Assembly (NCBI GenBank): GCA_003194435.1
Contig: PQXC01000001.1
Coordinates: 70,991-134,990, forward strand
Direction: 5' to 3'
DNA length: 64,000 bases
Source of the DNA: Candidatus Methanophagaceae archaeon
GTDB lineage: Archaea; Halobacteriota; Syntropharchaeia; Alkanophagales; Methanospirareceae
The notes beneath the pieces are model-generated. The model had not been told where the DNA came from and did no database searches. It saw only the letters and a list, made by a program, of their open reading frames with translations. Each line of letters begins with the position of its first letter. Position 1 is the stretch's first letter. Position numbers and translations under genes: made by a program. Below are positions 23,330 through 44,254 of this stretch, one piece after another.

Positions 23330-25416
23330 GCACGAGAGAAGAAATGCTTGAGCTTGATAAACTCTTCAATCCCAGGACTGTTGCGGTGGTTGGTGCCACA
23401 CCAAAAGAAGGGAAGGTGGGGAATACTATCCTCAAGAATTTAGTCGCATCAGGGACCGGGATGTTGAGCATATACGCAGTGAATCCCAAATACGACAGGA
23501 TTCAAGGTTTGAGGTGCTATCCGTCATTGAAGGAGATACAGGAGCAGGAGGAGAGTGATATTGACCTTGCTGTCATTGCGATACCAGCAGCAGGGGTGCC
23601 CAAGGTACTGGAGCAGTGTGGTGAGCGTGGCATAAAGAATGTGGTTGTCATCTCTGCGGGTTTCAAAGAGGCGGGGCGTGAAGGTGCAGTGCTCGAATCT
23701 GAGCTCATCGAGCTCGCCAGGCGCTATAAATTGAACCTCGTTGGTCCCAATTGCCTGGGTATAATAAACACGTATGCGAATTTAAATGCGACTTTTGGTA
23801 AGACCACACCAGATAGGGGCAGTATCGCATTCCTCAGTCAATCAGGCGCATTTGCACTCGCAGTTATTGATTGGGCGAAAGCAGCAAGGGTCGGCTTCAG
23901 CAAGATTGTATCACTGGGTAACAAAGCGGTGCTTGATGAGTGCCACTTCTTAGAATATCTGGCTAAAGACCCCGATACAGCAGTAATAACGATGTATCTC
24001 GAGGATGTGAGCGAAGGTAGCAGATTCATGAGCGTGGCGAGTGAAACATCGCGAACGAAACCGGTGGTGGTGATGAAGAGCGGCGTAACAGAAGCAGGAG
24101 CAAAAGCCGCTTCCAGCCACACGGGTAGCATAGCGGGCAGTGTGGAGGCATACAGGGCAGCCTTTGCGCAATCAGGCGTTGTGGAAGCGGCATCAATCCA
24201 GGAATTGTTCGATTTCTCGCTCTCACTGTCGCGAATCCGGAGTATAAAAGGTGGGATAGCAATAGTGACAAATTCCGGCGGTCCGGGCGTCATGGCTGCG
24301 GATGCAATAGAGGGGTCAGGGCTCGAACTTGCCACTTTTGAACGCGGGACGACGGAAAAACTCCACACTCTTCAGCTCGCCAATTCTTATAACCCCGTTG
24401 ATGTGCGTGGCGATGCAACAACCGATGAGTTCGGTACCGCACTGAACATAGTTGCAGAAGATGGGCATGTAGGTGCGATAATTGCTATCCTCTCTCCCAC
24501 TGCACCGATAGAATTTGATAAAGCGGGTGATTATGTCGTGGCGATAAATGCAAAAAAGCCGGTCATACCGGTATTCATGGGTGGCGAGACGGTAATGAGC
24601 GCAGTTGAAGCGCTTAAGAAGCACGGTATTGCGAATTATTTCGACCCCGTGAGGGCGGTGGAGAGCCTCAGGGCTGTAAGGGACTACGAAGAGCGGCATG
24701 AACGGGTATCTGAGCCACCTCCGCATTTCAATGTTGATACAGAGCGTGTCAGGGAGCAGATACGGCATAAACCGGGCTTTGAGTTACTGAAAGCGTATGG
24801 CATTCCGGTACCAGCCTACGGTAAAGCGGAGACTCCGGATGAGGCGCTTGAGATCGCTGATAGGATTGGCTATCCAGTGGCAATGAAGATTATCTCTCCT
24901 GACATAATTCATAAAACGGATGTGGGGTGTGTGAAGCTCAATGTGAACAGGAATAAGGTAAAAGAGAGTTTCTTCGAGATTATGCGCAGGGGTGAGAAAT
25001 ACACAACTGCAAGACGGATAGAAGGTGTTCTCGTGCAGCAGATGGTTGAGGGCGGTAAGGAGGTGATAATAGGTATGAAGCGTGACAGGCACTTTGGTCC
25101 ACTGCTCATGTTTGGATTGGGCGGGATTTATGTGGAAGTCTTCAGGGATGTCTCATTCAGGATTGCACCCCTGAGTATGAGTGATGCGAAGGAGATGATA
25201 AGGGATGTCAGGGCATACCGGATATTGCATGGCGTAAGAGGCGAGCCCATGTCCGATATAGATTCACTCGTCAATGTCCTGCTCAGGTTCTCGCAGTTAT
25301 GTGTGGAGTTTCCTGAGATACTGGAAGCGGATTTGAATCCAATCAAGGTATTTGAGCATGGTAAAGGCTGCTATGTGGTTGATTTCAAGATGATAAGTAG
25401 CGATTCCCACTTTTGA
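23326..25416 (+). CDS. acd: Acetyl-CoA synthetase (ADP-forming), fused alpha/beta (NDP-forming acyl-CoA synthetase family).
   Basis: CoA-binding Rossmann 'PRTVAVVGATPKEGKVG'. Succinyl-CoA-synthetase-like 'NLVGPNCLGIIN'. Catalytic His loop 'SHTGSIAG'. C-terminal ATP-grasp. 696 aa. Confidence 0.85.
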   Translation: MSTREEMLELDKLFNPRTVAVVGATPKEGKVGNTILKNLVASGTGMLSIYAVNPKYDRIQGLRCYPSLKEIQEQEESDIDLAVIAIPAAGVPKVLEQCGERGIKNVVVISAGFKEAGREGAVLESELIELARRYKLNLVGPNCLGIINTYANLNATFGKTTPDRGSIAFLSQSGAFALAVIDWAKAARVGFSKIVSLGNKAVLDECHFLEYLAKDPDTAVITMYLEDVSEGSRFMSVASETSRTKPVVVMKSGVTEAGAKAASSHTGSIAGSVEAYRAAFAQSGVVEAASIQELFDFSLSLSRIRSIKGGIAIVTNSGGPGVMAADAIEGSGLELATFERGTTEKLHTLQLANSYNPVDVRGDATTDEFGTALNIVAEDGHVGAIIAILSPTAPIEFDKAGDYVVAINAKKPVIPVFMGGETVMSAVEALKKHGIANYFDPVRAVESLRAVRDYEERHERVSEPPPHFNVDTERVREQIRHKPGFELLKAYGIPVPAYGKAETPDEALEIADRIGYPVAMKIISPDIIHKTDVGCVKLNVNRNKVKESFFEIMRRGEKYTTARRIEGVLVQQMVEGGKEVIIGMKRDRHFGPLLMFGLGGIYVEVFRDVSFRIAPLSMSDAKEMIRDVRAYRILHGVRGEPMSDIDSLVNVLLRFSQLCVEFPEILEADLNPIKVFEHGKGCYVVDFKMISSDSHF

Positions 25417-25481
25417 GGCTCAACATCCTATCTCCTGGAATTTTTATATTAATATTAAGGCAGGCTCTCTTCATTTAGCAT

Positions 25482-26042
25482 TTGGTGATGAGCGATAAGC
25501 ATAACGAAGGACTATCCATAGAGGAGAAGATATGGAAGCTCAGCGAGCTCCATGAGCTGCTGCCACTACACAGGGTATTACTCGGGCATGATGGTTCAAT
25601 GACGCTACTGCTGGAGTTAATTGTATGCAGTGAAGTTGAACTTGCTACAATCAGGCAAACGGTGGTGCCATGCCCGGAAGGCGCAGCAGAGTTACTCGGT
25701 GTTGATGCGGGTGTAGCGGCAAATGAGCGCGATATCATCATTATGAAGAAGAGCGATAGAACGCCACTGCTTTATGCACGGTCTTATACACCACTATCGA
25801 GGTTGAAGCCCGAGTTTAAAGAAGACATGATGAAAGCAGATATCCCGATAGGCAGGATAATGCAGAAGTACAGAATAGAAGCGCGGCGGGAGATACTGGA
25901 TGTGGGCTATCTGGAGCGTGAACATCGGCTGGAATCACTACTGCAGTGCACAGCGCCATTCCTATGGCGGATATACAATATAATCACCGGTGGTAAAGTA
26001 TTAATAACAGTAAAGGAGTTTTTCCCGGTCTCGTTACCTTGA
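25482..26042 (+). CDS. Chorismate-lyase-like (UbiC fold / DUF98) protein.
   Basis: 186 aa. 'LLGHDGSMTLLLE' block resembles the UbiC-family DGS.T..LE signature. Weak call. Confidence 0.35.
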   Translation: MVMSDKHNEGLSIEEKIWKLSELHELLPLHRVLLGHDGSMTLLLELIVCSEVELATIRQTVVPCPEGAAELLGVDAGVAANERDIIIMKKSDRTPLLYARSYTPLSRLKPEFKEDMMKADIPIGRIMQKYRIEARREILDVGYLEREHRLESLLQCTAPFLWRIYNIITGGKVLITVKEFFPVSLP

Positions 26043-26699
26043 ACGTGTTACACCAATTCGCTTACAGTATTGATAAACCGGGCAAATACTGCACCTGGGA
26101 CTCAGTGGCGTGCATACGCTCCTGCCATGCAGTACGAATAGCTCATTGAGGATTATCCAGTTCTGTTCGGGTACAACCCTGCGTAATGCAAATTCGGTCT
26201 CATTCGGGTTCCTGGTTGCAACGATGCCCATGCGATTGGATATGCGATGTACGTGCGTATCAACAGCGATACCGGGTTTATTATAGCCAATTGTGAGTAC
26301 TATATTTGCGGTCTTTCGACCCACACCCCGAAGCTTCAGGAGTTCATCCAGCTCATCTGGCACCTTAGAGTTATATCGCTCAACCAGAATAGAGCAGATC
26401 TCAACGATTTGCTTCGCTTTCCGGTGATAGAACCCCACTGGATATATTGCAGACTCTATATCGTCAATTCTGAGTTTTAGCATCTCTTCGGGCGTCTTCG
26501 CTAACGAGAACAAGCGCTCTGCCGCTTTTAATGTCACTTCATCATGGGTTCTCAGACTCAACAGGCATGAAATGAGTGTCAGAAACGGGTCGCCCCTCGT
26601 TGCAGGCGCCATAAGTAACGAGCTCCCCGCACGGTATCGCTTCTTCAATATCTGTATCACCTTCTCTACATCTGTATCTGTGCCCGTATCCGTATCCAT
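26034..26699 (-). CDS. nth: Endonuclease III (HhH-GPD DNA glycosylase with a 4Fe-4S cluster).
   Basis: HhH 'LLKLRGVGRKTANIVL'. GPD region 'VDTHVHRISNRMG'. C-terminal C-x6-C-x2-C-x5-C 'CTPLSPRCSICPVYQYC'. N-terminus starts with a Thr/Asp repeat (TDTGTDTD). Confidence 0.8.
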   Translation of the reverse strand: MDTDTGTDTDVEKVIQILKKRYRAGSSLLMAPATRGDPFLTLISCLLSLRTHDEVTLKAAERLFSLAKTPEEMLKLRIDDIESAIYPVGFYHRKAKQIVEICSILVERYNSKVPDELDELLKLRGVGRKTANIVLTIGYNKPGIAVDTHVHRISNRMGIVATRNPNETEFALRRVVPEQNWIILNELFVLHGRSVCTPLSPRCSICPVYQYCKRIGVTRSR

Positions 26700-26782
26700 A
26701 TCTATATCTGTATTAATCTCTCAATCTCTCTCATTGATTTGATTCCGTATGGGCTGGTATGGGATGAGTACAGCATCGTTCA

Positions 26783-27820
26783 TCATCGCCTGTGATAGAC
26801 CTTCCTCACGGGCCACGAAATCTCTATCCCCTCTTCATCATAGCGTCTCTTCAGCGCCTTTATGAACTCATGCATAACCAGATATTTAGCTGTCGGTTCT
26901 TCAACACGGAGAATAATCGAGAAATTTATGTTCGAGTCGCCGAAGGTGTGGTATCGGATAAAGGGTTCGAAAGTCTTCACCGCTCCTGGTACAGTCTCCT
27001 GTATTCGCTTGCCCACTTCCTTTGTTACTCGCTCCACCTTGTCCAGGTCAGACTCGTAAGCCACGCCACACTGGATCACCACTGACATCTCCTGCACCGG
27101 CATTGAATTATTCACGATTGTACTATCAGCGAGTTTTGAATTCGGAACCACGACATAAGTATTTGGTAGAGTCCTTATTCTTGTAGACCGCCAGCCTATA
27201 TCCTCAACAAAACCCGATATGCCACCCTCTATATCTATGAAGTCACCAACATTTATCGGGCGGTCAGAGAGGAGATGCAGCCCCGCAAATAAGTTCGCAA
27301 GTGTGTTCTGGAGTGCCAACCCAATAGCTAAGCCACCGAGCCCGAAGGATAGAAGCAGAGGGCTTATATCTATGTCAAAATGGCGTAGAATCATAAGAGC
27401 TGCGAGCAGATAAATACCCAGTGCTACTAAATTGCTTATCAACTTCGGCATCTTCTCGAATTTCTTCTGCACTCGCAGCCACCGGCTTATCAGAATGCTG
27501 AGCACACTGGATATTACCCAAGATATTAGTATAATCATGACCACGAAATAAACACCCTTTATATAACGCGAATAGGGCGTAAGGGCAGATAGAGAAAGCA
27601 GCCCGAAATATAGCCCGATGAGGATTATTAACCCACATACCGGCTTCGTTATCATCTTCAGCATCACATCATCAATATCGGTCTTTGTGCGTGCAGCTAT
27701 GCTACGGAGGTATCTGACGATGATGAAATGCACCACCTTTGTGAGAATAAGTGAACTAAGAATGATCAATGCGAAATGAAAGTATTCGCTCTGAATCAGA
27801 CCTTCCATTCCCACTTCCAT
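26783..27820 (-). CDS. MscS-family small-conductance mechanosensitive channel.
   Basis: 3 N-terminal TM helices, then the conserved 'PINVGDFIDIEGGISGFVEDIGWRSTRIRTLPNTYVVVPNS' MscS core. Confidence 0.8.
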   Translation of the reverse strand: MEVGMEGLIQSEYFHFALIILSSLILTKVVHFIIVRYLRSIAARTKTDIDDVMLKMITKPVCGLIILIGLYFGLLSLSALTPYSRYIKGVYFVVMIILISWVISSVLSILISRWLRVQKKFEKMPKLISNLVALGIYLLAALMILRHFDIDISPLLLSFGLGGLAIGLALQNTLANLFAGLHLLSDRPINVGDFIDIEGGISGFVEDIGWRSTRIRTLPNTYVVVPNSKLADSTIVNNSMPVQEMSVVIQCGVAYESDLDKVERVTKEVGKRIQETVPGAVKTFEPFIRYHTFGDSNINFSIILRVEEPTAKYLVMHEFIKALKRRYDEEGIEISWPVRKVYHRR

Positions 27821-28182
27821 ATCTATACCTATATCTATATCATTACCTTATCTCTTTAAAAAACTTCAGTCATTCATATATTCATATTCATCATTCATTC
27901 AATGACAGAGACCGAGCCAAATAGGAACTAGGAACTCATCAAATCTCATGTGTTAGATTGAATTCCTTTATCGCTTCCTTCACTGCTGTATCACAGTAAC
28001 AGTAGCCGCAATTGTGTGGTCTCCTCAGATGACCCACGCCCACCGGGTCGGACATCGGCAATCGGCAATCCGCGAATGATCGTGCCATGAAGCCACAGGT
28101 ATTTTTAAAGAGTTTTCCGGGTATTTCGTGATCTATCTGGTATACTCTATTTCGTTTGCGTTTCCCACTCTCTCGCATACTT

Positions 28183-28692
28183 TCATGACCGAAGCATAAT
28201 AGCAGGAATCCAGTCATAATAAACTTTCCCGTTCGCATCCACGAACTCAGAGCAGTTTATCCAGCCGTTTGGTGTGAGTAAGGATGTGTTATGGTGGATC
28301 TGTGGATACGAACCTGTGCGGATGGTGTAGTCGTATGTTTCGTTGGGTAAAAGAACAACGGTCTTGTCGAAGGTGATGTTATGCCAGTCGCTTGCGTAAC
28401 CTTCCCAGGTTGCGGTGGCGTTCCATGTTTTGTTCCAGATGCGAGCATATTCGGTATGCCCGCCTGTGCCTGCGCATGGATATGTGTAAAGTTTGGTTAC
28501 GATAATTGTTTGGTTTGTCGTGATTGTGCCGTTGTGCGTGCCTGCTATTGAAGGATATGGATTTGAGGTGTGCCGGTGTTGAAGACTTTTAATGCTCCTG
28601 AAGTGGTAAATATTATACTCTGAACTCTCTGCCGAATTCCCACTTTGGTCTGCGCCGTTTACAACGAAATAATAACAGTTGCCTGGTAGCAA
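28183..28692 (-). pseudogene. 5'-truncated fragment of an FN3-PKD surface-protein paralog. Retains the end of the FN3 domain plus the shared sequon-rich C-terminal domain and lacks the PKD domain.
   Basis: 'YYFVVNGADQSGNSAESSEYNIYHF' parallels 'YYFVVKSVDLSGNSAESSEYSFTT' of the 42858 gene. C-terminal 'NPYPSIAGTHNGTIT...YDWIPAIMLRS' is near-identical to the 42858 gene C-terminus. In-frame stop immediately upstream. Confidence 0.55.
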
Positions 28693-28897
28693 TCCTGCTA
28701 ATTCAATGACATGAGTCTACAAATAGTGAGTCCTTCTCTCTTTCTGTATAAATTCTCGATGCTTTGCCATATTTCACCAAACTATCCTCGGGGTGTGGTG
28801 TCGTTTATGAGTTTCTGGGAAGATTAAATTGCACTAACTATTGAGACCTGTACGCAAAGAAATAGAATGAATAATAAGAGTTCTTTGGTCTTCATTT

Positions 28898-29368
28898 TCA
28901 TGTTTCACCTCGATTGACTGATTCGTTCTTTTCTGGGACTGGGTCTATCACATCAAAATTCTCTATTTCCTCAATCTTTGATCTCAATTTTTTAAATGCC
29001 CCGTCATGCGTCATTATTTCATTCACACCGTTCATAACCATTGTAGCCAATAAAACCGCATCTCTGCCTCCTATTCCATAATTCCAATATTTGGATAGCA
29101 GTTTGAGTGCTTTCTGCATCATATCATAATCAAAATCGAGTAATTCCAGTGATCTTAGCCTTGAAATATAGTTTATGTCTTCCCAAAATTCGTTTTCTGG
29201 CTCATGGCGAACAAGATAGTGCGCTACTTCCTGAATAACAATTGTATTTGCCAATATCCCTTCTTCTCCCATGATAATTCTTCTTATTGGTTCTTTAACA
29301 TATTTGTGCTCTTCTAAGCTTTCATCAAAATAATATATCCACATGTTGCTATCTATCATTATCATCAA
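28898..29368 (-). CDS. vapC: PIN-domain ribonuclease toxin VapC.
   Basis: 'MIDSNMWIYYFDE' (first acidic residue). 'VIQEVAHYL'. 'GGRDAVLLATMV'. 'IMTHDGAFKKL'. This is the PIN acidic quartet pattern. 4-nt overlap with the upstream vapB. Confidence 0.75.
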   Translation of the reverse strand: MMIMIDSNMWIYYFDESLEEHKYVKEPIRRIIMGEEGILANTIVIQEVAHYLVRHEPENEFWEDINYISRLRSLELLDFDYDMMQKALKLLSKYWNYGIGGRDAVLLATMVMNGVNEIMTHDGAFKKLRSKIEEIENFDVIDPVPEKNESVNRGET

Positions 29369-29598
29369 CGCATCTTCCAGATACTTTTGATCTCTTCTGG
29401 AGTAATGGTTTTATTGCCACTTTTTATCTTTCCTTCCATTCTTTTGACGAACTCTTCTGGACTGATTAAAGGCAAAAGCATTATCTTTTTACCTTCTTTT
29501 TTAATTTCGAGCTCCTCTCCAGGTTTTAGGTATAACTCTTCTCTTATCTTTTCTGGAATTTGAATTCTTCCTTTTTCGTCTATGACTGCTATTGCCAT
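29365..29598 (-). CDS. vapB: AbrB/SpoVT-fold antitoxin VapB.
   Basis: 'MAIAVIDEKGRIQIPEKIREELYLKPGEELEI' swapped-hairpin motif. 77 aa. Immediately upstream of vapC. Confidence 0.7.
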   Translation of the reverse strand: MAIAVIDEKGRIQIPEKIREELYLKPGEELEIKKEGKKIMLLPLISPEEFVKRMEGKIKSGNKTITPEEIKSIWKMR

Positions 29599-29745
29599 AT
29601 TACATCCTCCTCATGATGCATTGCCCGGCGGTTCCGCTCATTTTTTATCACTCATTTACTTTATTGTAGAAGTTATATAAAAGAGCTATATAAATGCTAT
29701 AGCTTATTTGTTATTTGTTGTTCTGAACACCCCTATTTCCGAATG

Positions 29746-29943
29746 TCATGATAGTTTAATAGCGGGAATCCAGTCATAATAAACTTTCCCGTTTGCATCC
29801 ACGAACTCAGAGCAGTTTATCCAGCCATTCTTTGTTGGCAGTGCATCAGTGTGGTGAATTTGCGGATAAGAGCCCGTCACTATCGTTATATTGTATGTCT
29901 CATAAGGCATTAATATCACTGTTTTATTGAAATAAATGTTCAT
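29746..29943 (-). pseudogene. Short 3' fragment of a beta-helix surface-protein paralog (last ~65 aa of the shared C-terminal domain) with its 3' flank conserved.
   Basis: 'YNITIVTGSYPQIHHTDALPTKNGWINCSEFVDANGKVYYDWIPAIKLS' matches the C-terminus of the 39379-41742 gene, including the '...IPAIKLS' ending. The ~80 nt downstream (29681-29760) matches the sequence downstream of 41742. Confidence 0.55.
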
Positions 29944-30107
29944 CCAGTCCTCTTTGTAACCTTTCCATTCCGCATAAGCACGCCCAGTTCAGGCAGTGAG
30001 ATTTCGCTGCTCTTTTATCCGTGTATCCATCCTTATGATCCTTGAAGCACCACAATAAGGGCATCTCGTCCGTGACATTGGCAATGTTCTCCATTGTTAT
30101 ATTGTTA

Positions 30108-39378: not shown

Positions 39379-41742
39379 ATGAATAAAGATATAAAATATC
39401 TCGTGTTTGGAATGTGTGTGGCATTTGTGCTATTCAGTGCCTTCGCGGGTGTGAGTGTGGGTGTGACGTTGGCGTCTGCAACAACGATATACGTGCCTGA
39501 CAACTACGCGAAGATTCAGTGGGCTATTGATAGTGCAAGTGTTGGGGATACGATTGTTGTTAGGGATGGAACTTATGTTGAGAATATAGATATAAACAAA
39601 CCACACCTAACGATTAGGTCTGAGAATGGGTCTGCCAACTGCGTTGTTCAGGCTGCCAAATCTTATTACCACGTCTTCAATGTGACCGCAGATAATGTTA
39701 CCATCAAAGGCTTCACCGTTACCGGGGCTACCGGCTATTATAAAGCTGGAATTTATCTCTATAACTCGGATTACTGTAGGATAGAGAATGTAATCGCCTC
39801 GAACAACTATTGGGGTATCTATCTGTGTTCTTCCAGCAACAACACTATCTATAACAACAACGCCTCGAACAACATCGATGGAATCCACCTCCACTCTTCC
39901 AGCAGCAACACCATAGCAAACAACACCGCAAACTCGAACTACCGGTATGGCATCTATCTGTATGATTCCAGCAACAATACTATCTATAATAACAACGCCT
40001 CGAACAACGATGATGGCATCGTTCTGGGTGATTCCAGCAGCAACAATATCTATAACAATACCGCAAACTCAAACAACCATTGTGGTATTGAGCTGTGGGG
40101 TTCCAGCATCAGCAGCAACAACAACAATATCTATAGCAATACCGCCTCGGACAACTATCGTGGTATTGAGCTGTGGGGTTCCAGCAACAACAATATCTAT
40201 AACAACAACGTAAACTCGAACAACTATTATGGCATCTCTCTGTGGTTTTCCAGCAACAACAGCATCACCAACAACGTAATGAATAGCGATGGCATTCACA
40301 TTGGAGGCTCTCAACTACAATACTGGAACACTCATACAATGGAGGGCAACACCGTCAATGGTAAACCTCTTTATTATTTTAAGAACCAGATCGGAGGTAA
40401 GGTTCCAGAGGATGCAGGGCAGGTCATCGTTGCCAACTGTACGGGAATGAGAATAGAGAATCTGAATATTAGCAATACCGATGTAGGAGTTCAATTAGGA
40501 TTCTCATCGCATAATATTATTAAAAACAACACCGCAAACTCGAACGATGATGATGGCATCTCTCTGTATTCTTCCAGCAACAACACTATCTATAACAACA
40601 CCGCAAACTCGAACGATGATGATGGCATCTCTCTGGGTTCTTCCAGCAACAACACTATCTATAACAACAACGCCTCGAACAACTATTGGGGTATCTATCT
40701 GTGGCATTCCAGCAACAATAATACTATCTATAACAACAATGCCTCGAACAACAATGACGGCATCTATGTGTATTCTTCCAGCAACAACACTATCTATAAC
40801 AACACCGCAAACTCGAACGATGATGATGGCATCTCTCTGTGTTCTTCCAGCAACAATAATATCTATAACAACGCAAACTCAAACAACGGGTATGGCATCT
40901 ATCTGGGTGATTCCAGCAACAACAATACTATCTATAACAACAACGCAAACTCGAACAATGATGATGGCATCTCTCTGGGTTTTTCCAGCAACAACAAAAT
41001 CTACAATAACAACGCCTCGAACAACGATGATGGCATCTCCCTGGATTATTCCAGCAACAACAAAATCTACTTCAACAACTTCATAAACAACACAGATAAC
41101 GTTTATTCTTATTATGGTTATACTTATGGATCTGAAAATAAATGGAATTCGACGGAAGAAATAACATACACATACAAAGGAAAAACTTACGAGAACTACC
41201 TCGGTAACTACTGGGACGATTATACTGGAACAGATACGAACAAAGATGGAATTGGCGACACGCCTTACAGCATAGATTCAGACAAAGACAATCATCCACT
41301 AATGGAGCCTTGGGAGAATTACTTTGCACCATCAGAGAATATTTTTGATACAGGAAAGCCGGCAAATCCATACCCTTCCATATCGGGCACGCACAACGGC
41401 ACAATCACGCCAAACCAGACAATTACTGTATCCACGCTTTACACTTATCCATGTGCGGGCACAGGCGGGCACACCGAATATGCTCGTATCTGGAACAAAA
41501 CATGGAACGCAACCGCAACCTGGAACGGCTATGTAGACGACTGGCACAACATCCCCTTTAATGAACCATTCACACTTGTAAAAGACGAAGTTTACAACTA
41601 CACTATCAGAACAGGCTCCTATCCGCAAATTCATCATAACACTTCCTTACTCACACCAAACGGCTGGATAAACTGCACCAAATTTACAGATGCGAACGGG
41701 AAAGTTTATTATGACTGGATTCCTGCTATTAAACTATCCTGA
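39379..41742 (+). CDS. Secreted right-handed parallel beta-helix (NosD/pectin-lyase-fold) repeat surface protein with the shared sequon-rich C-terminal domain.
   Basis: Signal peptide 'LVFGMCVAFVLFSAFAGVSVG'. 'TIYVPDNYAKIQWAIDSASVGDTIVVRDGTY'. About 20 copies of a 22-aa PbH1-like repeat 'SSNNTIYNNNASNNDDGIxL'. C-terminal 'NPYPSISGTHNGT...IPAIKLS'. Confidence 0.7.
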   Translation: MNKDIKYLVFGMCVAFVLFSAFAGVSVGVTLASATTIYVPDNYAKIQWAIDSASVGDTIVVRDGTYVENIDINKPHLTIRSENGSANCVVQAAKSYYHVFNVTADNVTIKGFTVTGATGYYKAGIYLYNSDYCRIENVIASNNYWGIYLCSSSNNTIYNNNASNNIDGIHLHSSSSNTIANNTANSNYRYGIYLYDSSNNTIYNNNASNNDDGIVLGDSSSNNIYNNTANSNNHCGIELWGSSISSNNNNIYSNTASDNYRGIELWGSSNNNIYNNNVNSNNYYGISLWFSSNNSITNNVMNSDGIHIGGSQLQYWNTHTMEGNTVNGKPLYYFKNQIGGKVPEDAGQVIVANCTGMRIENLNISNTDVGVQLGFSSHNIIKNNTANSNDDDGISLYSSSNNTIYNNTANSNDDDGISLGSSSNNTIYNNNASNNYWGIYLWHSSNNNTIYNNNASNNNDGIYVYSSSNNTIYNNTANSNDDDGISLCSSSNNNIYNNANSNNGYGIYLGDSSNNNTIYNNNANSNNDDGISLGFSSNNKIYNNNASNNDDGISLDYSSNNKIYFNNFINNTDNVYSYYGYTYGSENKWNSTEEITYTYKGKTYENYLGNYWDDYTGTDTNKDGIGDTPYSIDSDKDNHPLMEPWENYFAPSENIFDTGKPANPYPSISGTHNGTITPNQTITVSTLYTYPCAGTGGHTEYARIWNKTWNATATWNGYVDDWHNIPFNEPFTLVKDEVYNYTIRTGSYPQIHHNTSLLTPNGWINCTKFTDANGKVYYDWIPAIKLS
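39790..41090 (+). repeat. In-frame tandem nucleotide repeats (period ~66 nt) encoding the PbH1-like units of the beta-helix protein.
   Basis: Near-identical blocks such as 'ttccagcaacaacactatctataacaacaccgcaaactcgaacgatgatgatggcatctctctg' recur many times between ~39.8 and 41.1 kb. Confidence 0.7.
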
Positions 41743-41838
41743 CATTCGGAAACAGGAGTGTTCAGAACAACTAACAACAAATAACTATAGCAAATTATTT
41801 TATATAACTTCTATAACGAAGTAAATAGGTGATAAAAA

Positions 41839-42774
41839 ATGGCAAAGAGGTTAGGCTTGAAGGTATTGGCAATCTCTATTGCCTTAGTAATAGTCGCAAG
41901 CAGCGTGGCGATGTATGGGTATAGCGGAACAGAAGGGGGAGAAGGGATAAGCGAAAGCGGAGGCGGAAAAGGCGTTATCTCGCTTGTGGCTCCGCCTTTT
42001 ATCGGCGTCGCCGGCGCGGGTGAGGCGATGGGTGGCAACGGTGGAGGCGCTTTCCCCAAAGACAAAGCGGGAATCTCTGCATATATAAACACAAGTCAGA
42101 CGATAGACATCGAAAAAATAAAGACGATTTTCACTGAAGTGGAAGAAGTAGGCGACAACTATATCATTGGAATAACACCTATCTCCGACTTCGGCGGTGA
42201 TATAGATGTGCATGTATATGCAGACACGGACGGATGGATTGTTGCTTATCTCGAGACAGATGAGCCAGCGGCGAAGATAATGCAGTGGGGAACTGCGGAT
42301 GTGAACAATCCAACCATTGGCGTAATAAAATCCACCACGCTTGAAGATGCGCTATACAAAGCAGGTGATGCTGCCGGCGTTGGAATTGTGGCAAGCAAAA
42401 TAAAATACTACGATTTCGAGTTTCCAAATGCGGACAGCATGACTTTGTTTGTCAGAACAAGGGCAACAGCGGGGACAAATATCGCACAGGTTGAGATTCC
42501 AGCGGATTATATGCTCTTCGAGGCTTCTTATTACCACTATGTCACAGGCTACTATAGGTATAGCTATAGCACAAATTCAAAGTTAAAAGTGGACGGGGCA
42601 ACGATCAGTAGTCTTTCAATTTCAGGTTATGGCGGAAGGAAATGGGGCAGAGCATTTGACTCATATAAAGGAGCAATCACTACTGGAACGCTGCACAAAA
42701 TAGAAATAGCTTACGGTTCTGACTATTCTGGTTCAGCCGGCGTAGCAACGGTGCTGATATATAGGACTGGATGA
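41839..42774 (+). CDS. Hypothetical secreted/membrane-anchored protein (311 aa) with a Gly-rich N-terminal region.
   Basis: N-terminal hydrophobic 'LKVLAISIALVIVASSVAMYG', then 'GTEGGEGISESGGGKG...GAGEAMGGNGGGAF'. No known motif. Sits between the two surface-protein genes. Confidence 0.4.
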   Translation: MAKRLGLKVLAISIALVIVASSVAMYGYSGTEGGEGISESGGGKGVISLVAPPFIGVAGAGEAMGGNGGGAFPKDKAGISAYINTSQTIDIEKIKTIFTEVEEVGDNYIIGITPISDFGGDIDVHVYADTDGWIVAYLETDEPAAKIMQWGTADVNNPTIGVIKSTTLEDALYKAGDAAGVGIVASKIKYYDFEFPNADSMTLFVRTRATAGTNIAQVEIPADYMLFEASYYHYVTGYYRYSYSTNSKLKVDGATISSLSISGYGGRKWGRAFDSYKGAITTGTLHKIEIAYGSDYSGSAGVATVLIYRTG

Positions 42775-42857
42775 AGAGATGGGGAATGAGGGATAACAAA
42801 TGCTAAAAACGGGCATAGAGACGCTTAAGGAAATCAGGGATATATTAGGAGGTTAAA

Positions 42858-44219
42858 ATGAAATCTAAGGAATTTACTTATTTTATCTTAGCCTTTACAT
42901 TGATGATTCTCGTAAACACGGCATCAGCAGCGATTAACATAACCGATGCGGATGCAATATACGAAGTAAACTTGTCCACCGTGAGTGTTCCAACAAGTCC
43001 AGTTCCAATTAAAACCGTTTTCGTGGTCAACGGAGATACATCTTCAGACAAGAATTTATCCCCCGTAAGCATTCCAACCCAGCCCTCTCCACTAAAAGAA
43101 ATTTTCATCATCAACGAAGATGCAACGCTTAAAAAGAATCTTTTCACGGTGAGCATTCCCACTGAGCCTTTACCCATCAGAGAAATATTTATTCATCTCG
43201 AAGATGCAAAGTATTTTGAAGAATTGCTCTTCCCAAAAGAGCTCATAAATGATACCACACCGCCAATAATCACAAACATAACCGTAACGAACATAACAGA
43301 CGATTCTGCAACGATAAAATGGGATACGGATGAGTTCGCAGATAGTCTTGTTAAATACGGAACATCCTCGGGCGCTTACACAAAGCAGGAATACGACGAA
43401 TTATTCGTGAAGAACCACTCTGTTTCGTTATACAATCTCTCGTCGGGGACAAAATATTATTTCGTTGTGAAGAGCGTTGATCTAAGCGGGAATTCGGCAG
43501 AGAGCTCAGAATATAGTTTTACCACTTTAGGAACATTAAACCAACCGCCGATCGCAAGTTTCACATACTACCCTGAAAATCCTTTACTTGGCGAGCAGAT
43601 AACCTTTGATGCATCTTCTTCCTACGACTCAGACGGAAACATTACGAATTACGAATGGGACTTCGGCGATGGAAACGTCACGAACACAACGCATGAAATA
43701 CTAAATCATTCCTATTCAGAAGCAGGAAGTTATGAGGTAACATTAACAGTAACAGACGATGATGGAGTGACAAATTCAACTACAAAAGAAATAACGGTCT
43801 ATCCACCAGTAGCAATCTTCGACACCGGCACACCCTCAAATCCATACCCTTCAATAGCAGGCGTGCACAACGGCACAATCACACCAAACCAAACAATTAT
43901 TGCAACTAAGCTTTACACTTATCCCTGTGAAGGCACAGGCGGGCACATCGAATATGCTCGCATCTGGAACAAAACATGGAACGCAACCGCAACCTGGGAA
44001 GGCTATGTAGACGACTGGCACAACATCTCCTTTAATGAACCATTCACACTTATAAAAGACGAAGTTTACAACTACACCATTCGCACAGGCTCTTATCCAC
44101 AGATTCACCATAACACATCCTTACTCACACCAAACGGCTGGATAAACTGCACTAAATTTACAGATGCGAACGGGAAAGTTTATTATGACTGGATACCTGC
44201 TATTATGCTTCGGTCATGA
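42858..44219 (+). CDS. Secreted surface protein: N-terminal tripled short repeat, FN3-like domain, PKD domain, then the shared sequon-rich C-terminal domain.
   Basis: Signal 'FTYFILAFTLMILVNTASAA'. Tripled 'VSxPTxPxPIKxxF(V/I)xNxD' repeat. FN3-like 'TDDSATIKWDTDEFADSLVKYGTSSG...YYFVVKSVDLSGN'. PKD 'ITFDASSSYDSDGNITNYEWDFGDGN...GSYEVTLTVTDDDG'. C-terminal 'NPYPSIAGVHNGT...IPAIMLRS'. Confidence 0.7.
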   Translation: MKSKEFTYFILAFTLMILVNTASAAINITDADAIYEVNLSTVSVPTSPVPIKTVFVVNGDTSSDKNLSPVSIPTQPSPLKEIFIINEDATLKKNLFTVSIPTEPLPIREIFIHLEDAKYFEELLFPKELINDTTPPIITNITVTNITDDSATIKWDTDEFADSLVKYGTSSGAYTKQEYDELFVKNHSVSLYNLSSGTKYYFVVKSVDLSGNSAESSEYSFTTLGTLNQPPIASFTYYPENPLLGEQITFDASSSYDSDGNITNYEWDFGDGNVTNTTHEILNHSYSEAGSYEVTLTVTDDDGVTNSTTKEITVYPPVAIFDTGTPSNPYPSIAGVHNGTITPNQTIIATKLYTYPCEGTGGHIEYARIWNKTWNATATWEGYVDDWHNISFNEPFTLIKDEVYNYTIRTGSYPQIHHNTSLLTPNGWINCTKFTDANGKVYYDWIPAIMLRS

Positions 44220-44254
44220 AAGGATGCGAGCGTTTAAAATAGGCGTTCCAAAAT

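What the first reader, a model, noticed from the sequence alone, without database searches (positions are those of the whole stretch)
28183..29943. Degenerate inverted paralog of the surface-protein locus with vapBC in place of the middle gene
Two minus-strand fragments (28183-28692 and 29746-29943) are near-identical to the 3' ends of the FN3-PKD gene (ending ...IPAIMLRS) and the beta-helix gene (ending ...IPAIKLS) respectively. They are in the same relative order as in the intact locus at 39.4-44.2 kb (beta-helix, then the 41839 gene, then FN3-PKD). Even the ~80 nt following the stop of the beta-helix gene is conserved next to fragment B (compare 41743-41820 with the reverse complement of 29681-29760). 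The position occupied by the 41839 hypothetical gene in the intact locus is here occupied by a vapB-vapC toxin-antitoxin pair. The first ~70 nt of both fragments read 3' to 5' ('GGGAATCCAGTCATAATAAACTTTCCCGTT.GCATCCACGAACTCAGAGCAGTTTATCCAGCC') are almost identical, forming direct repeats flanking the TA cassette. This looks like a locus duplicated, inverted, 5'-deleted and then invaded or stabilised by a TA module, a small variable islet.
Basis: seen in the sequence. Interest (0 to 1): 0.7.

Follow-up and report, generated by a model that had tools for sequence, protein, structure and literature searches.

The report
Wrecked surface-protein operon retaining intact vapBC
In this methane-oxidising archaeon (ANME-1), a second, old copy of a three-gene secreted-protein operon has decayed to fragments while the toxin-antitoxin pair embedded in it stays intact, inside a strain-variable islet; this is a well-documented but fairly ordinary kind of genome hotspot.

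Summary
Minus-strand fragments at 28183-28692 and 29746-29943 are homologous (80-86% nt) and collinear with the beta-helix / mid / FN3-PKD locus at 39.4-44.2 kb. An intact vapB-vapC pair lies between them, flanked by a 73-nt direct repeat (96%).

The interpretation needs correcting:
- Fragment A is a whole decayed FN3-PKD gene (28183-28895) with three large deletions and frameshifts.
- Fragment B reaches about 30015.
- The copy is an old paralogue. Upstream gene products are only 40-46% identical. Only the shared C-terminal domain (CTD) is kept similar, and it is mosaic.
- vapBC did not replace the middle gene. Related archaea carry mid-vapB-vapC-FN3 operons with the same ATGA vapC/FN3 overlap, so mid was probably deleted here.

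The same wreck with intact vapBC occurs in more than 20 Methanophagales contigs, in several flanking contexts. Two contigs whose MscS gene is closest to the window's lack it. Another carries a type IIG restriction enzyme beside it.

vapBC has about 10-fold lower synonymous divergence than the adjacent MscS and EndoIII genes, and lower GC (35% against 46%). This suggests recent exchange between strains.

Verdict: a pseudogenised operon with a persistent, probably selfish VapBC module in an ANME-1 variable hotspot. It is a new member of a known kind.

The parts
28183..28585 (-). CTD-A: coding remnant of the C-terminal domain (about 130 aa) of the decayed FN3-PKD paralogue. It forms the 3' part of the 169-aa ORF at 28183-28692.
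   Evidence: 86.3% nt identity to 43816-44230. 83% aa identity to FN3-PKD residues 327-453. Mosaic relative to other CTD copies.
28586..28897 (-). 5' wreck of the FN3-PKD paralogue. It holds a signal-peptide remnant (MKMKTKELLLFILF..., from 28895), then pieces matching residues 127-135 and 162-220 of the intact protein in different frames. The N-terminal repeats, part of FN3 and the whole PKD domain are deleted.
   Evidence: tblastn. Three-frame translation and comparison with L011, L016, L005, L013, L012 and L020: all share the large deletions but carry different frameshifts. L088 retains about 320 nt that are missing at window 28827.
28898..29365 (-). vapC, 155 aa, a PIN-domain toxin gene that is intact. 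Its TGA stop overlaps the old FN3-PKD start codon (ATGA).
   Evidence: Pfam PIN E 2.8e-13. AF2 pLDDT 91.8. Top Foldseek PDB hits are VapC toxins of VapBC complexes. D5, E46, D102 and D121 are invariant in 22 homologues. 0-5 substitutions, plus one in-frame 27-nt deletion allele, in about 19 metagenome contigs.
29365..29598 (-). vapB, 77 aa, an AbrB/SpoVT/MazE-type antitoxin gene. It overlaps vapC by 1 nt.
   Evidence: Pfam MazE_antitoxin E 5.9e-7. NCBIfam AbrB domain E 6.6e-11. PDB SpoVT/AbrB N-domains. The identical protein is indexed in 46 blocks of the metagenome collection.
29599..29641 (-). Leader. It holds the start codon homologous to the ATG of the middle gene, followed by a 13-codon mini-ORF (MSGTAGQCIMRRM*) that ends just before the vapB ATG. 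It is possibly a vestige of the mid 3' end.
   Evidence: Homology to the intact locus stops right after the ATG. Length variants occur in other contigs. The longer variant resembles the mid 3' end of L088 (shuffle p = 0.0075) but not other mid genes.
29642..29745 (-). Conserved intergenic region downstream of the beta-helix stop. It holds two TTTATATA boxes (29674-29681 and 29687-29694) and a GAGTGAT Shine-Dalgarno sequence. It is inferred to be the former mid promoter, now driving vapBC.
   Evidence: About 85% identical to 41743-41838. TTTATATA occurs only 7 times in 64 kb, two of them here and one at the homologous site 41799. Promoter function is inferred, not shown.
29746..30015 (-). CTD-B: the last ~90 codons of a beta-helix (NosD-like) gene whose 5' part is deleted. 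It contains the 65-aa ORF at 29746-29943.
   Evidence: blastn and tblastn. Alignment with L013, where the same CTD ends a ~580-codon beta-helix gene.
30016..30107 (-). Junction: about 90 nt of unknown origin between the Rad50 stop (30108) and the CTD-B remnant. This is the left edge of the islet.
   Evidence: L014 matches the window only down to 30094, then carries a type IIG RM gene. L013 matches only from about 30010 onward.
28144..28182 (.). Right edge of the islet. Contigs L110 and L111, which lack the module, become homologous to the window from 28144 towards MscS.
   Evidence: blastn of L110/L111 covers 25184-28144 only, at 96.3%.
28197..28269 (.). Direct repeat copy 1, the 3' end of CTD-A.
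   Evidence: 96% identical to 29757-29829.
29757..29829 (.). Direct repeat copy 2, the 3' end of CTD-B.
   Evidence: In L013 the neighbouring 24-nt haplotypes are swapped between the two CTDs.
39379..44219 (+). Intact comparator locus: beta-helix-CTD (39379-41742), mid (41839-42774) and FN3-PKD-CTD (42858-44219). It has no vapBC.
   Evidence: ORFs and Pfam. The 83-nt mid/FN3-PKD spacer shows no significant vestige of vapBC.

Best explanation
Window 28.14-30.1 kb (minus strand) is the wreck of a second, anciently diverged copy of a Methanophagales (ANME-1) secreted-protein operon. The operon consists of a beta-helix protein, 'mid', and an FN3-PKD protein. The first and last of these end in the same ~130-aa beta-sandwich domain (CTD).

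In this operon lineage, a type II VapBC module (AbrB-type antitoxin plus PIN RNase toxin) sits between mid and the FN3 gene and is translationally coupled to it.

Here the structural genes have been destroyed:
- The beta-helix gene is cut down to its last ~90 codons and abuts the Rad50 3' end.
- mid is deleted, leaving its promoter, Shine-Dalgarno sequence, ATG and a 13-codon leader.
- FN3-PKD has lost three segments and is frameshifted.

vapB-vapC remains intact and is probably transcribed from the retained mid promoter.

The whole thing sits in a strain-variable islet between Rad50 and MscS. The TA pair persists, and appears to have been exchanged recently between strains, because it is addictive or otherwise selected, while its neighbours drift. 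The flanking 73-nt 'direct repeats' are the conserved 3' ends of the two CTD-coding segments. These are kept similar by constraint in functional copies and by gene conversion between copies.

Shown: homology, breakpoints, pseudogene status, TA integrity and fold, presence/absence polymorphism, low synonymous divergence.
Inferred: promoter use, toxin activity, deletion of mid (as opposed to never being present), and recombinational spread.
For: Homology and collinearity.

Pseudogene status: contigs from many samples share the same large deletions but carry different frameshifts.

Organism: genome and protein names are Methanophagales.

Longer ancestral forms:
- L013-type contigs carry a whole beta-helix gene with one shared frameshift upstream of the same vapBC.
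- L106/L088 carries an intact mid-vapB-vapC-FN3 operon with 4-nt overlaps, seen in 5 contigs.
- Six of 80 mid loci, plus L024 and L025, have vapB(C) between mid and FN3.

Old paralogy: beta-helix 44-46% and mid about 40% aa identity, against CTD 69-87%.

TA membership:
- PIN Pfam hit. AF2 model pLDDT 91.8, matching solved VapC toxins. Invariant D5/E46/D102/D121.
- AbrB-type VapB with a 1-nt overlap.

Selection or exchange:
- Substitution diversity is 0.005-0.006 in vapBC, against 0.025 in psi-FN3, 0.053 in the upstream intergenic region and 0.13-0.16 in the CTDs.
- dS for window vs L013/L001/L004 is 0-0.016 for vapBC, against 0.12-0.135 for MscS and 0.08-0.12 for EndoIII on the same contigs.
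- GC is 35% (GC3 0.33), against 46-48% (GC3 0.51-0.55) in the neighbours.
- VapC relatives are bimodal: 97-100% identity, then 83% or less.

Islet:
- L110/L111 (MscS 98% nt, 99% aa) lack the module from position 28144.
- L014 has a type IIG RM gene between Rad50 and the module.
- L115 (MscS 74%) has PurL there instead.

Literature: ANME-1 variable hotspots enriched in RM and type II TA genes, with insertion/deletion variants, are described in PMC13385816.
Against: - Contigs L001-L020 were retrieved by exact VapB or VapC protein identity. This biases them towards low vapBC divergence, although synonymous sites and the non-selected partner gene are not directly biased.
- Short-read metagenome contigs can be chimeric at repeats such as the CTD or an invariant vapBC. 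The pairing of left and right contexts is therefore uncertain.
- The vestige of mid upstream of vapB is weak: p = 0.0075 against one comparator and not significant against four others.
- No vestige of vapBC was found in the intact locus. It is therefore open whether vapBC is ancestral to all such operons or joined one sub-lineage.
- No expression or toxicity data exist. PADLOC has no model hit, and the NCBIfam VapC models score below their cut-offs.
- No relative was found on viral contigs or plasmids, so no vector for exchange was identified.
Confidence: 0.7

Rival explanations
1. First reader's scenario. The intact 39-44 kb locus was recently duplicated and inverted, the copy lost its 5' end, and a mobile vapBC cassette then inserted and replaced the middle gene. 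The 73-nt repeats mark that event.
For: The fragments are collinear and inverted, with vapBC exactly where mid would be. Homology ends at the mid ATG on one side and at the FN3-PKD start on the other. vapBC has a foreign-looking GC content.
Against: - Outside the CTD the two loci are very divergent: beta-helix 44-46% aa, FN3 part 45-65% aa.
- The same wreck, with the same deletions, occurs in more than 20 contigs, so it is old.
- vapBC lies between mid and FN3 in eight other loci, and L024 and L106 show the same ATGA junction to FN3 as the window.
- No terminal repeats, transposase, integrase or tRNA lie at the cassette ends.
- The 73-nt repeats are CTD coding sequence found in every CTD gene.
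Confidence: 0.08
2. The CTD fragments are not junk. They are silent donor cassettes, or short CTD-only proteins, kept for recombinational variation of surface proteins. The CTD-flanked vapBC unit moves between CTD-bearing genes by excision as a circle and homologous re-integration, and the TA enforces retention.
For: - The vapBC module follows several different CTD-bearing genes: L013-type beta-helix, L015 beta-helix, the 1192-aa BACON/PKD/NosD protein of L019, and the LTD/PLD protein of L012. It has at least four different right-hand contexts.
- Context breakpoints fall inside or at the end of CTD coding sequence.
- CTDs are mosaic. A 24-nt haplotype is reciprocally swapped between CTD-A and CTD-B in the window compared with L013, as excision and re-integration at different points would produce.
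- Many database CTD proteins are short.
- One MAG (WYZ-LMO13) holds two module copies, with VapC at 81% and 99% identity.
Against: - The short ORFs lack signal peptides and differ by frameshifts between strains.
- Mosaicism is expected for any multi-copy family.
- Different contexts may reflect different species, or chimeric assemblies.
- Two gene conversions explain the swap equally well.
- There is no evidence of circles.
Confidence: 0.12
3. Assembly or annotation artefact. The fragments result from misassembly of repeated CTD sequences or from sequencing frameshifts in an otherwise intact gene set.
For: The CTD is a multi-copy repeat that can confuse assemblers.
Against: The same architecture, including the large deletions, is reproduced at 91-98% identity in independent assemblies from JGI, ENA, NCBI and Logan samples. 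About 1.1 kb of coding sequence is missing, not merely out of frame.
Confidence: 0.02

Closest known systems
Type II VapBC toxin-antitoxin modules (PIN toxin with AbrB/SpoVT-type antitoxin). Examples: M. tuberculosis VapBC (5x3t), Rickettsia VapBC2 (3zvk), Shigella/F-plasmid VapBC (5ecw, 9h6a), FitAB (2bsq).
   Same: - Antitoxin-then-toxin gene order with overlapping stop and start codons.
- AbrB-type DNA-binding N-domain in VapB.
- PIN fold with four conserved acidic residues in VapC.
- Small size.
- Persistence in a decaying, variable region (addiction-like behaviour).
   Different: - Sequence is remote from solved members (13-20% identity in structural alignments).
- It scores below the NCBIfam VapC cut-offs.
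- In relatives it is embedded in, and translationally coupled to, a secreted-protein operon rather than standing alone.
- Activity is untested.
ANME-1 highly variable genomic hotspots enriched in RM and type II TA genes (Zhou et al., Nat Commun 2026, PMC13385816).
   Same: - Same clade.
- Strain-level presence/absence and insertion/deletion variants around TA and RM genes. Here these are the module being present or absent, a type IIG RM insertion, and truncated toxins in L020, L024 and L025.
- TA modules are proposed to stabilise variable regions.
   Different: [quoted passage not shown]
- The link to a decayed surface-protein operon and to CTD repeats is not described there.
Concerted evolution and segmental gene conversion in multi-copy surface-protein families with silent partial copies, such as Neisseria pilE/pilS. 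This comparison comes from general knowledge and is an analogy only.
   Same: Multiple copies of one coding segment (the CTD), some in promoterless or truncated pseudogenes, with mosaic sequence exchange between copies.
   Different: There is no evidence that exchange is programmed or serves variation. No recombination-initiating element was identified. The conserved part, not a variable part, is what is shared.

Membership tests
VapBC type II toxin-antitoxin | The toxin is a PIN-domain protein. | tested here: met
   Pfam PF01850 E 2.8e-13, covering 118 of 120 model positions. AF2 model pLDDT 91.8. The best Foldseek PDB matches are VapC chains of VapBC complexes, probability 1.00, TM 0.73-0.82.
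VapBC type II toxin-antitoxin | Conserved acidic active-site residues of the PIN domain. | tested here: met
   D5, E46, D102 and D121 are invariant in the 22-sequence alignment A5. Their positions at the start of strand 1, in helix 3, and in the GGRD and THD motifs fit the PIN pattern. The pattern itself is taken from general knowledge.
VapBC type II toxin-antitoxin | A small antitoxin gene with a DNA-binding domain lies immediately upstream, in the same operon. | tested here: met
   The 77-aa VapB has an AbrB/MazE N-domain. The vapB stop and vapC start overlap by 1 nt.
VapBC type II toxin-antitoxin | The toxin arrests growth by RNA cleavage and is neutralised by its cognate antitoxin. | not testable with these tools
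   Requires expression assays.
VapBC type II toxin-antitoxin | Score above the curated family thresholds (NCBIfam VapC models). | tested here: not met
   TIGR00028 scores 25.7 bits against a cut-off of 73.6. NF047959 scores 19.2 against 80. It is a divergent PIN/VapC-like protein, not a member of those specific curated subfamilies.
Pseudogene (decayed paralogue of the beta-helix / mid / FN3-PKD operon) | Homology to an intact gene is spread over several reading frames, with internal deletions. | tested here: met
   tblastn hits fall in frames -1, -2 and -3, and residues 1-126 (except a signal-peptide remnant), 136-161 and 221-326 are missing.
Pseudogene (decayed paralogue of the beta-helix / mid / FN3-PKD operon) | Lineage-specific disabling mutations, indicating neutral drift. 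| tested here: met
   Different frameshifts occur in the window, L013/L001, L011/L016/L005, L012 and L020, on top of shared deletions. Substitution diversity is 4-5 times that of vapBC.
Strain-variable genomic islet / defence hotspot | Presence/absence polymorphism between conserved flanking core genes in close relatives. | tested here: met
   L110/L111 (MscS 98% nt) lack the module from 28144. L001, L004 and L013 (MscS 94-95% nt) have it. L014 shares the Rad50 end but has an extra RM gene.
Strain-variable genomic islet / defence hotspot | Content made up of recognised defence genes. | tested here: inconclusive
   The type IIG RM gene in L014 scores 1073 bits in PADLOC. vapBC itself and the L110 alternatives have no significant PADLOC hit, apart from a weak PycTM match at E 6e-4.
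Autonomous mobile element (IS, transposon, integron cassette, integrative element) | Terminal repeats, a recombinase gene, an att or tRNA target site. | tested here: not met
   No terminal inverted or direct repeats lie at the vapBC ends, only the CTD repeat. There is no tRNA in the 64 kb and no recombinase between Rad50 and MscS. No relatives were found in viral contigs or plasmids.

The most novel reading that the evidence does not exclude
The CTD-coding repeats act as portable homology arms. The unit 'CTD end - promoter - vapBC - psi-FN3 - CTD' excises and re-integrates by homologous recombination behind any CTD-bearing surface-protein gene. A recombinase-less addiction cassette would thus spread within and between ANME-1 genomes, and the retained CTD fragments would double as donors for mosaic variation of expressed surface proteins.
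Probability: 0.12. Interest if true: 0.6.

Novelty: new member of a known kind. Interest (0 to 1): 0.35.

Why it matters
It gives a concrete, base-resolved example of how an ANME-1 variable hotspot is built. A toxin-antitoxin pair outlives the operon it was embedded in. It appears to have been exchanged between strains far more recently than the neighbouring core genes diverged. It also sits beside alternative cargo, such as a type IIG restriction enzyme or unrelated ORFs.

It also flags two uncharacterised features of these uncultured methane oxidisers:
- An abundant Methanophagales-specific C-terminal beta-sandwich domain on secreted proteins.
- A conserved mid + FN3-PKD gene pair, sometimes with an embedded VapBC.

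Both are candidates for cell-surface biology. None of this overturns current views. TA and RM genes in ANME-1 hotspots, and VapBC abundance in archaea, are already known.

Tried and rejected
- **vapBC vestiges in the intact locus.** I looked in the 83-nt mid/FN3-PKD spacer. Local alignments scored no better than shuffles, so it cannot be said whether that locus lost vapBC.
- **mid 3'-end vestige upstream of vapB.** Searching the whole mid genes was not significant. Restricting to the last ~65 nt gave p = 0.0075 for L088 only. I kept this as weak support only.
- **Global MAFFT alignment of fragment A against FN3-PKD.** It misplaced the 5' pieces, so I used tblastn and frame translations instead.
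- **Exact-protein look-ups.** The TTG-start VapC, mid and Rad50 found nothing. The ATG-start VapC and VapB worked.
- **'Near-zero vapBC diversity proves a sweep'.** I downgraded this. Across all contigs the vapBC / psi-FN3 diversity ratio is about 1/4-1/5. Together with the retrieval bias, that is roughly what purifying selection would give. The stronger argument is the 10-fold dS deficit relative to MscS/EndoIII on the same contigs.
- **Repeats, tRNAs and RNA families.** No cassette-end repeats, tRNA or Rfam family were found.
- **Mobile-element vector.** No viral or plasmid relatives of VapC were found.
- **PADLOC.** It does not recognise this vapBC.
- **Sigma-70 promoter scan.** Not run, because the organism is an archaeon.
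Full report

Yes. blastn of 27.5-30.5 kb against the whole window gave four matches:
- 28172-28585(-) to the 3' end of the FN3-PKD gene (43816-44230): 86.3% over 416 nt, E 9e-138.
- 28588-28674(-) to 43455-43540: 83.9%. The PKD-coding stretch in between is missing.
- 29639-29877(-) to 41611-41841: 79.8% over 242 nt, E 8e-56.
- An internal 73-nt direct repeat, 28197-28269 / 29757-29829, at 95.9%.

The fragments are collinear with beta-helix (39379-41742), 'mid' (41839-42774) and FN3-PKD (42858-44219), in the opposite orientation. Between them lie vapB (29365-29598; AbrB/MazE type) and vapC (28898-29365; PIN).

'Near-identical' is too strong. Identity is 80-86% at the nucleotide level and 83% / 67% at the protein level.

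**2. Anatomy, corrected.**

Fragment A is not just a 3' end.
- tblastn finds FN3-PKD residues 127-135, 162-184/174-220 and 327-453 in three different frames.
- Directly after the vapC stop there is a signal-peptide remnant (MKMKTKELLLFILF...), whose ATG overlaps the vapC TGA (ATGA).
- So 28183-28895 is an entire FN3-PKD paralogue that has lost its N-terminal repeats, part of FN3 and all of PKD, and is frameshifted.

Fragment B extends to 29982 by tblastn and to about 30015 by eye. About 90 nt of unknown origin then separate it from the Rad50 stop at 30108.

On the other side of vapBC, homology to the intact locus continues from the beta-helix stop through the intergenic region. It stops immediately after the Shine-Dalgarno sequence and ATG of mid.
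- That region carries TTTATATA boxes at 29674-29681 and 29687-29694.
- The motif occurs only 7 times in 64 kb, and one occurrence is at the homologous site 41799.
- I infer that this is the archaeal mid promoter, now driving a 13-codon leader ORF and vapBC.

No tRNA or Rfam family lies in the region, and there are no repeats at the vapBC ends.

**3. Organism and relatives.**

Relatives of VapC and of the C-terminal domain come from Methanophagales/ANME-1 MAGs and from metagenomes. The identical VapB protein is indexed in 46 blocks of the metagenome collection. The identical VapC is on 13 contigs.

More than 20 contigs carry the same unit at 90-98% nt identity: CTD-B end, intergenic region, vapBC, psi-FN3-PKD, CTD-A. 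They share the window's large deletions in psi-FN3-PKD but carry different frameshifts. The gene was therefore already dead in their common ancestor and has drifted since.

Contigs of the L013 type show what is missing in the window. They carry a ~580-codon beta-helix gene, itself with one frameshift shared across the contigs compared, ending in the same CTD-B. Upstream of it lie a second TA pair and a phosphatase instead of Rad50.

**4. Did vapBC replace the middle gene?**

No, as far as the evidence goes. A metagenome scan with mid returned 80 loci.
- In most, mid is followed directly by an FN3-PKD-like gene, so this is a conserved pair.
- In L038, L087, L088, L090, L097 and L099, and in the MAG contigs L024 and L025, vapB (with an intact, truncated or lost vapC) sits between mid and the FN3 gene.
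- L106 (= L088) is an intact four-gene operon: mid(305)-vapB(77)-vapC(157)-FN3(292) with 4-nt overlaps. It was seen in five contigs.
- The vapC-stop / FN3-start ATGA overlap is the same in L024, L106 and the window.
- L098 has vapBC upstream of mid and a vapB vestige downstream of it.

The simplest history is a mid-vapBC-FN3 operon from which mid was deleted. The 40-51 nt between the retained mid ATG and vapB resemble the mid 3' end of L088 (p = 0.0075) but not other mid genes, so this support is weak.

The intact locus shows no significant vapBC vestige. Whether it lost the TA or never had it remains open.

**5. How old is the paralogy?**

Outside the CTD the two loci are far apart.
- The L013-type beta-helix protein is 44-46% identical to the intact one.
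- The mid of the L088 lineage is about 40% identical.
- The FN3 part is 45-65% identical.
- The CTDs are 69-87% identical.

An alignment of eight CTD-coding copies is mosaic.
- The window's two remnants share the '...CSEFVD...' 3' variant, whereas both intact genes share '...CTKFTD...'.
- A 24-nt haplotype (NTSLLTPN / TDALPTKN) is swapped between CTD-A and CTD-B in the window relative to L013.

So the 'direct repeats flanking the TA cassette' are the conserved, recombining 3' ends of a multi-copy coding segment. They are not insertion scars.

**6. The TA pair.**

- VapC matches Pfam PIN over the full model (E 2.8e-13).
- Its AF2 model (pLDDT 91.8) is most similar to VapC chains of solved VapBC complexes.
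- D5, E46, D102 and D121 are invariant among 22 homologues.
- VapB has an AbrB/SpoVT N-domain, and its stop codon overlaps the vapC start by 1 nt.
- The NCBIfam VapC models are below threshold, and PADLOC has no hit.
- Activity is untested.

**7. Conservation pattern.**

Across about 20 contigs, substitution diversity is:

| Segment | Diversity |
|---|---|
| vapB | 0.006 |
| vapC | 0.005 |
| psi-FN3 | 0.025 |
| upstream intergenic region | 0.053 |
| CTDs | 0.13-0.16 |

Part of this contrast is ordinary purifying selection, and part is retrieval bias, because the contigs were chosen by exact VapB or VapC.

A cleaner test uses synonymous divergence on the same contigs:

| Gene(s), window vs L013/L001/L004 | dS |
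|---|---|
| MscS | 0.12-0.135 |
| EndoIII | 0.08-0.12 |
| vapBC (0-2 synonymous changes on about 130 sites) | 0-0.016 |

vapBC is also AT-rich: 35% GC (GC3 0.33) against 46-48% (GC3 0.51-0.55) in the neighbours. VapC relatives fall into a 97-100% identity group, then 83% or less, with nothing in between.

I read this as recent recombinational exchange of the vapBC core between strains. No vector was found in viral contigs or plasmids.

**8. A variable islet.**

- Contigs L110/L111, whose MscS gene is the closest found to the window's (98% nt, 99% aa), lack the whole module. Homology to the window starts at 28144, 39 nt beyond the CTD-A stop, and unrelated ORFs lie upstream.
- L001, L004 and L013, with MscS at 94-95% nt, have the module.
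- L014 shares the Rad50 3' end with the window. It then carries a type IIG restriction-modification gene (PADLOC 1073 bits) and a 139-aa ORF before a shorter CTD-B remnant.
- A more distant relative (L115, MscS 74%) has PurL next to MscS.
- Elsewhere the module follows other CTD-bearing genes: the beta-helix gene of L015, the 1192-aa BACON/PKD/NosD gene of L019, and the LTD/PLD gene of L012. Its right-hand contexts also differ: a TPR gene, a PGF-CTERM gene, or ZnuA. Breakpoints fall in or at the end of CTD sequence.
- Short-read assemblies can be chimeric at such repeats, so the pairings of left and right contexts are provisional.

**9. Comparison with what is known.**

VapBC is a classical type II TA family and, from general knowledge, the commonest one in archaea. 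TA pairs outliving decaying neighbours fits their addictive behaviour.

Zhou et al. 2026 (PMC13385816) describe ANME-1 'highly variable genomic hotspots' enriched in RM and type II TA operons with insertion/deletion variants. They propose that TAs stabilise such regions. [quoted passage not shown]

The present case is therefore a new member of a known kind. Two modestly new details are:
- The TA is embedded in, and translationally coupled to, a secreted-protein operon in relatives.
- The module is bracketed by recombining CTD repeats.

**10. Verdict.**

It is wrong in two respects: the duplication was not recent, and the TA did not invade to replace mid.
- Best explanation, confidence about 0.7: a decayed old operon copy with a persistent, recently exchanged VapBC in an ANME-1 hotspot.
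- Most novel reading not excluded, about 0.12: the CTD repeats serve as homology arms that move the cassette between surface-protein genes.
- Interest 0.35.

Noticed in passing
[not shown]
   Followed up: partly
window 41839-42774 and 42858-44219; loci L026-L105: The 311-aa 'mid' protein has no family hit and an N-terminal hydrophobic segment. Together with an FN3-PKD-like gene it forms a conserved pair in most of 80 metagenome loci (40-94% identity). Its function is unknown.
   Followed up: partly
L014 192-4118: In another strain, a 1124-aa type IIG restriction-modification enzyme (PADLOC REase_MTase_IIG, 1073 bits) and a 139-aa ORF with a predicted N-terminal membrane segment lie between the Rad50 3' end and a shorter CTD-B remnant.
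   Followed up: partly
L110 1-2160, L111 1-595; junction at window 28144: The two contigs whose MscS gene is closest to the window's (98% nt) lack the vapBC module. They carry unrelated ORFs there instead (107, 227, 169 and 49 aa). The 169-aa ORF has only a weak PycTM-like hit (E 6e-4).
   Followed up: partly
L011 6830-6920: About 45 nt after the CTD-A stop there is a second vestigial CTD 3' end (ACTGGATACCCGCTATTAGATTATGGTAA). It is preceded by a perfect 11-bp-stem palindrome (AAAACTTTCTT-TCT-AAGAAAGTTTT). This could be a scar of recombination at CTD ends, or a terminator.
   Followed up: no
L106 (= L088) 61-603: An IS200/IS605-type TnpA (Y1_Tnp) gene lies immediately upstream of the intact mid-vapB-vapC-FN3 operon.
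   Followed up: no
L013 449-1547 and 1903-3655: Upstream of the L013-type beta-helix gene lie a second TA pair (VapB_antitox + PIN) and a dual-specificity phosphatase gene. The beta-helix gene itself carries a single frameshift at about 2375. The sequence at that site is the same in the other contigs compared (L002, L011, L016, L017).
   Followed up: partly
alignment A6 columns 299-322 (window 28262-28285 and 29822-29845): Two 24-nt haplotypes, encoding NTSLLTPN and TDALPTKN, are reciprocally swapped between CTD-A and CTD-B in the window compared with L013.
   Followed up: partly
window 29993-30093: About 100 nt between the Rad50 stop and the CTD-B remnant match nothing else retrieved. One frame reads ...RCPYCGAS..., which resembles a zinc ribbon and may be a remnant of yet another lost gene.
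   Followed up: no
L020 623-832, L024 1453-1720, L025 844-975: In several relatives vapC is internally deleted or almost gone while vapB stays intact. This is the toxin-first decay path expected for TA modules.
   Followed up: partly
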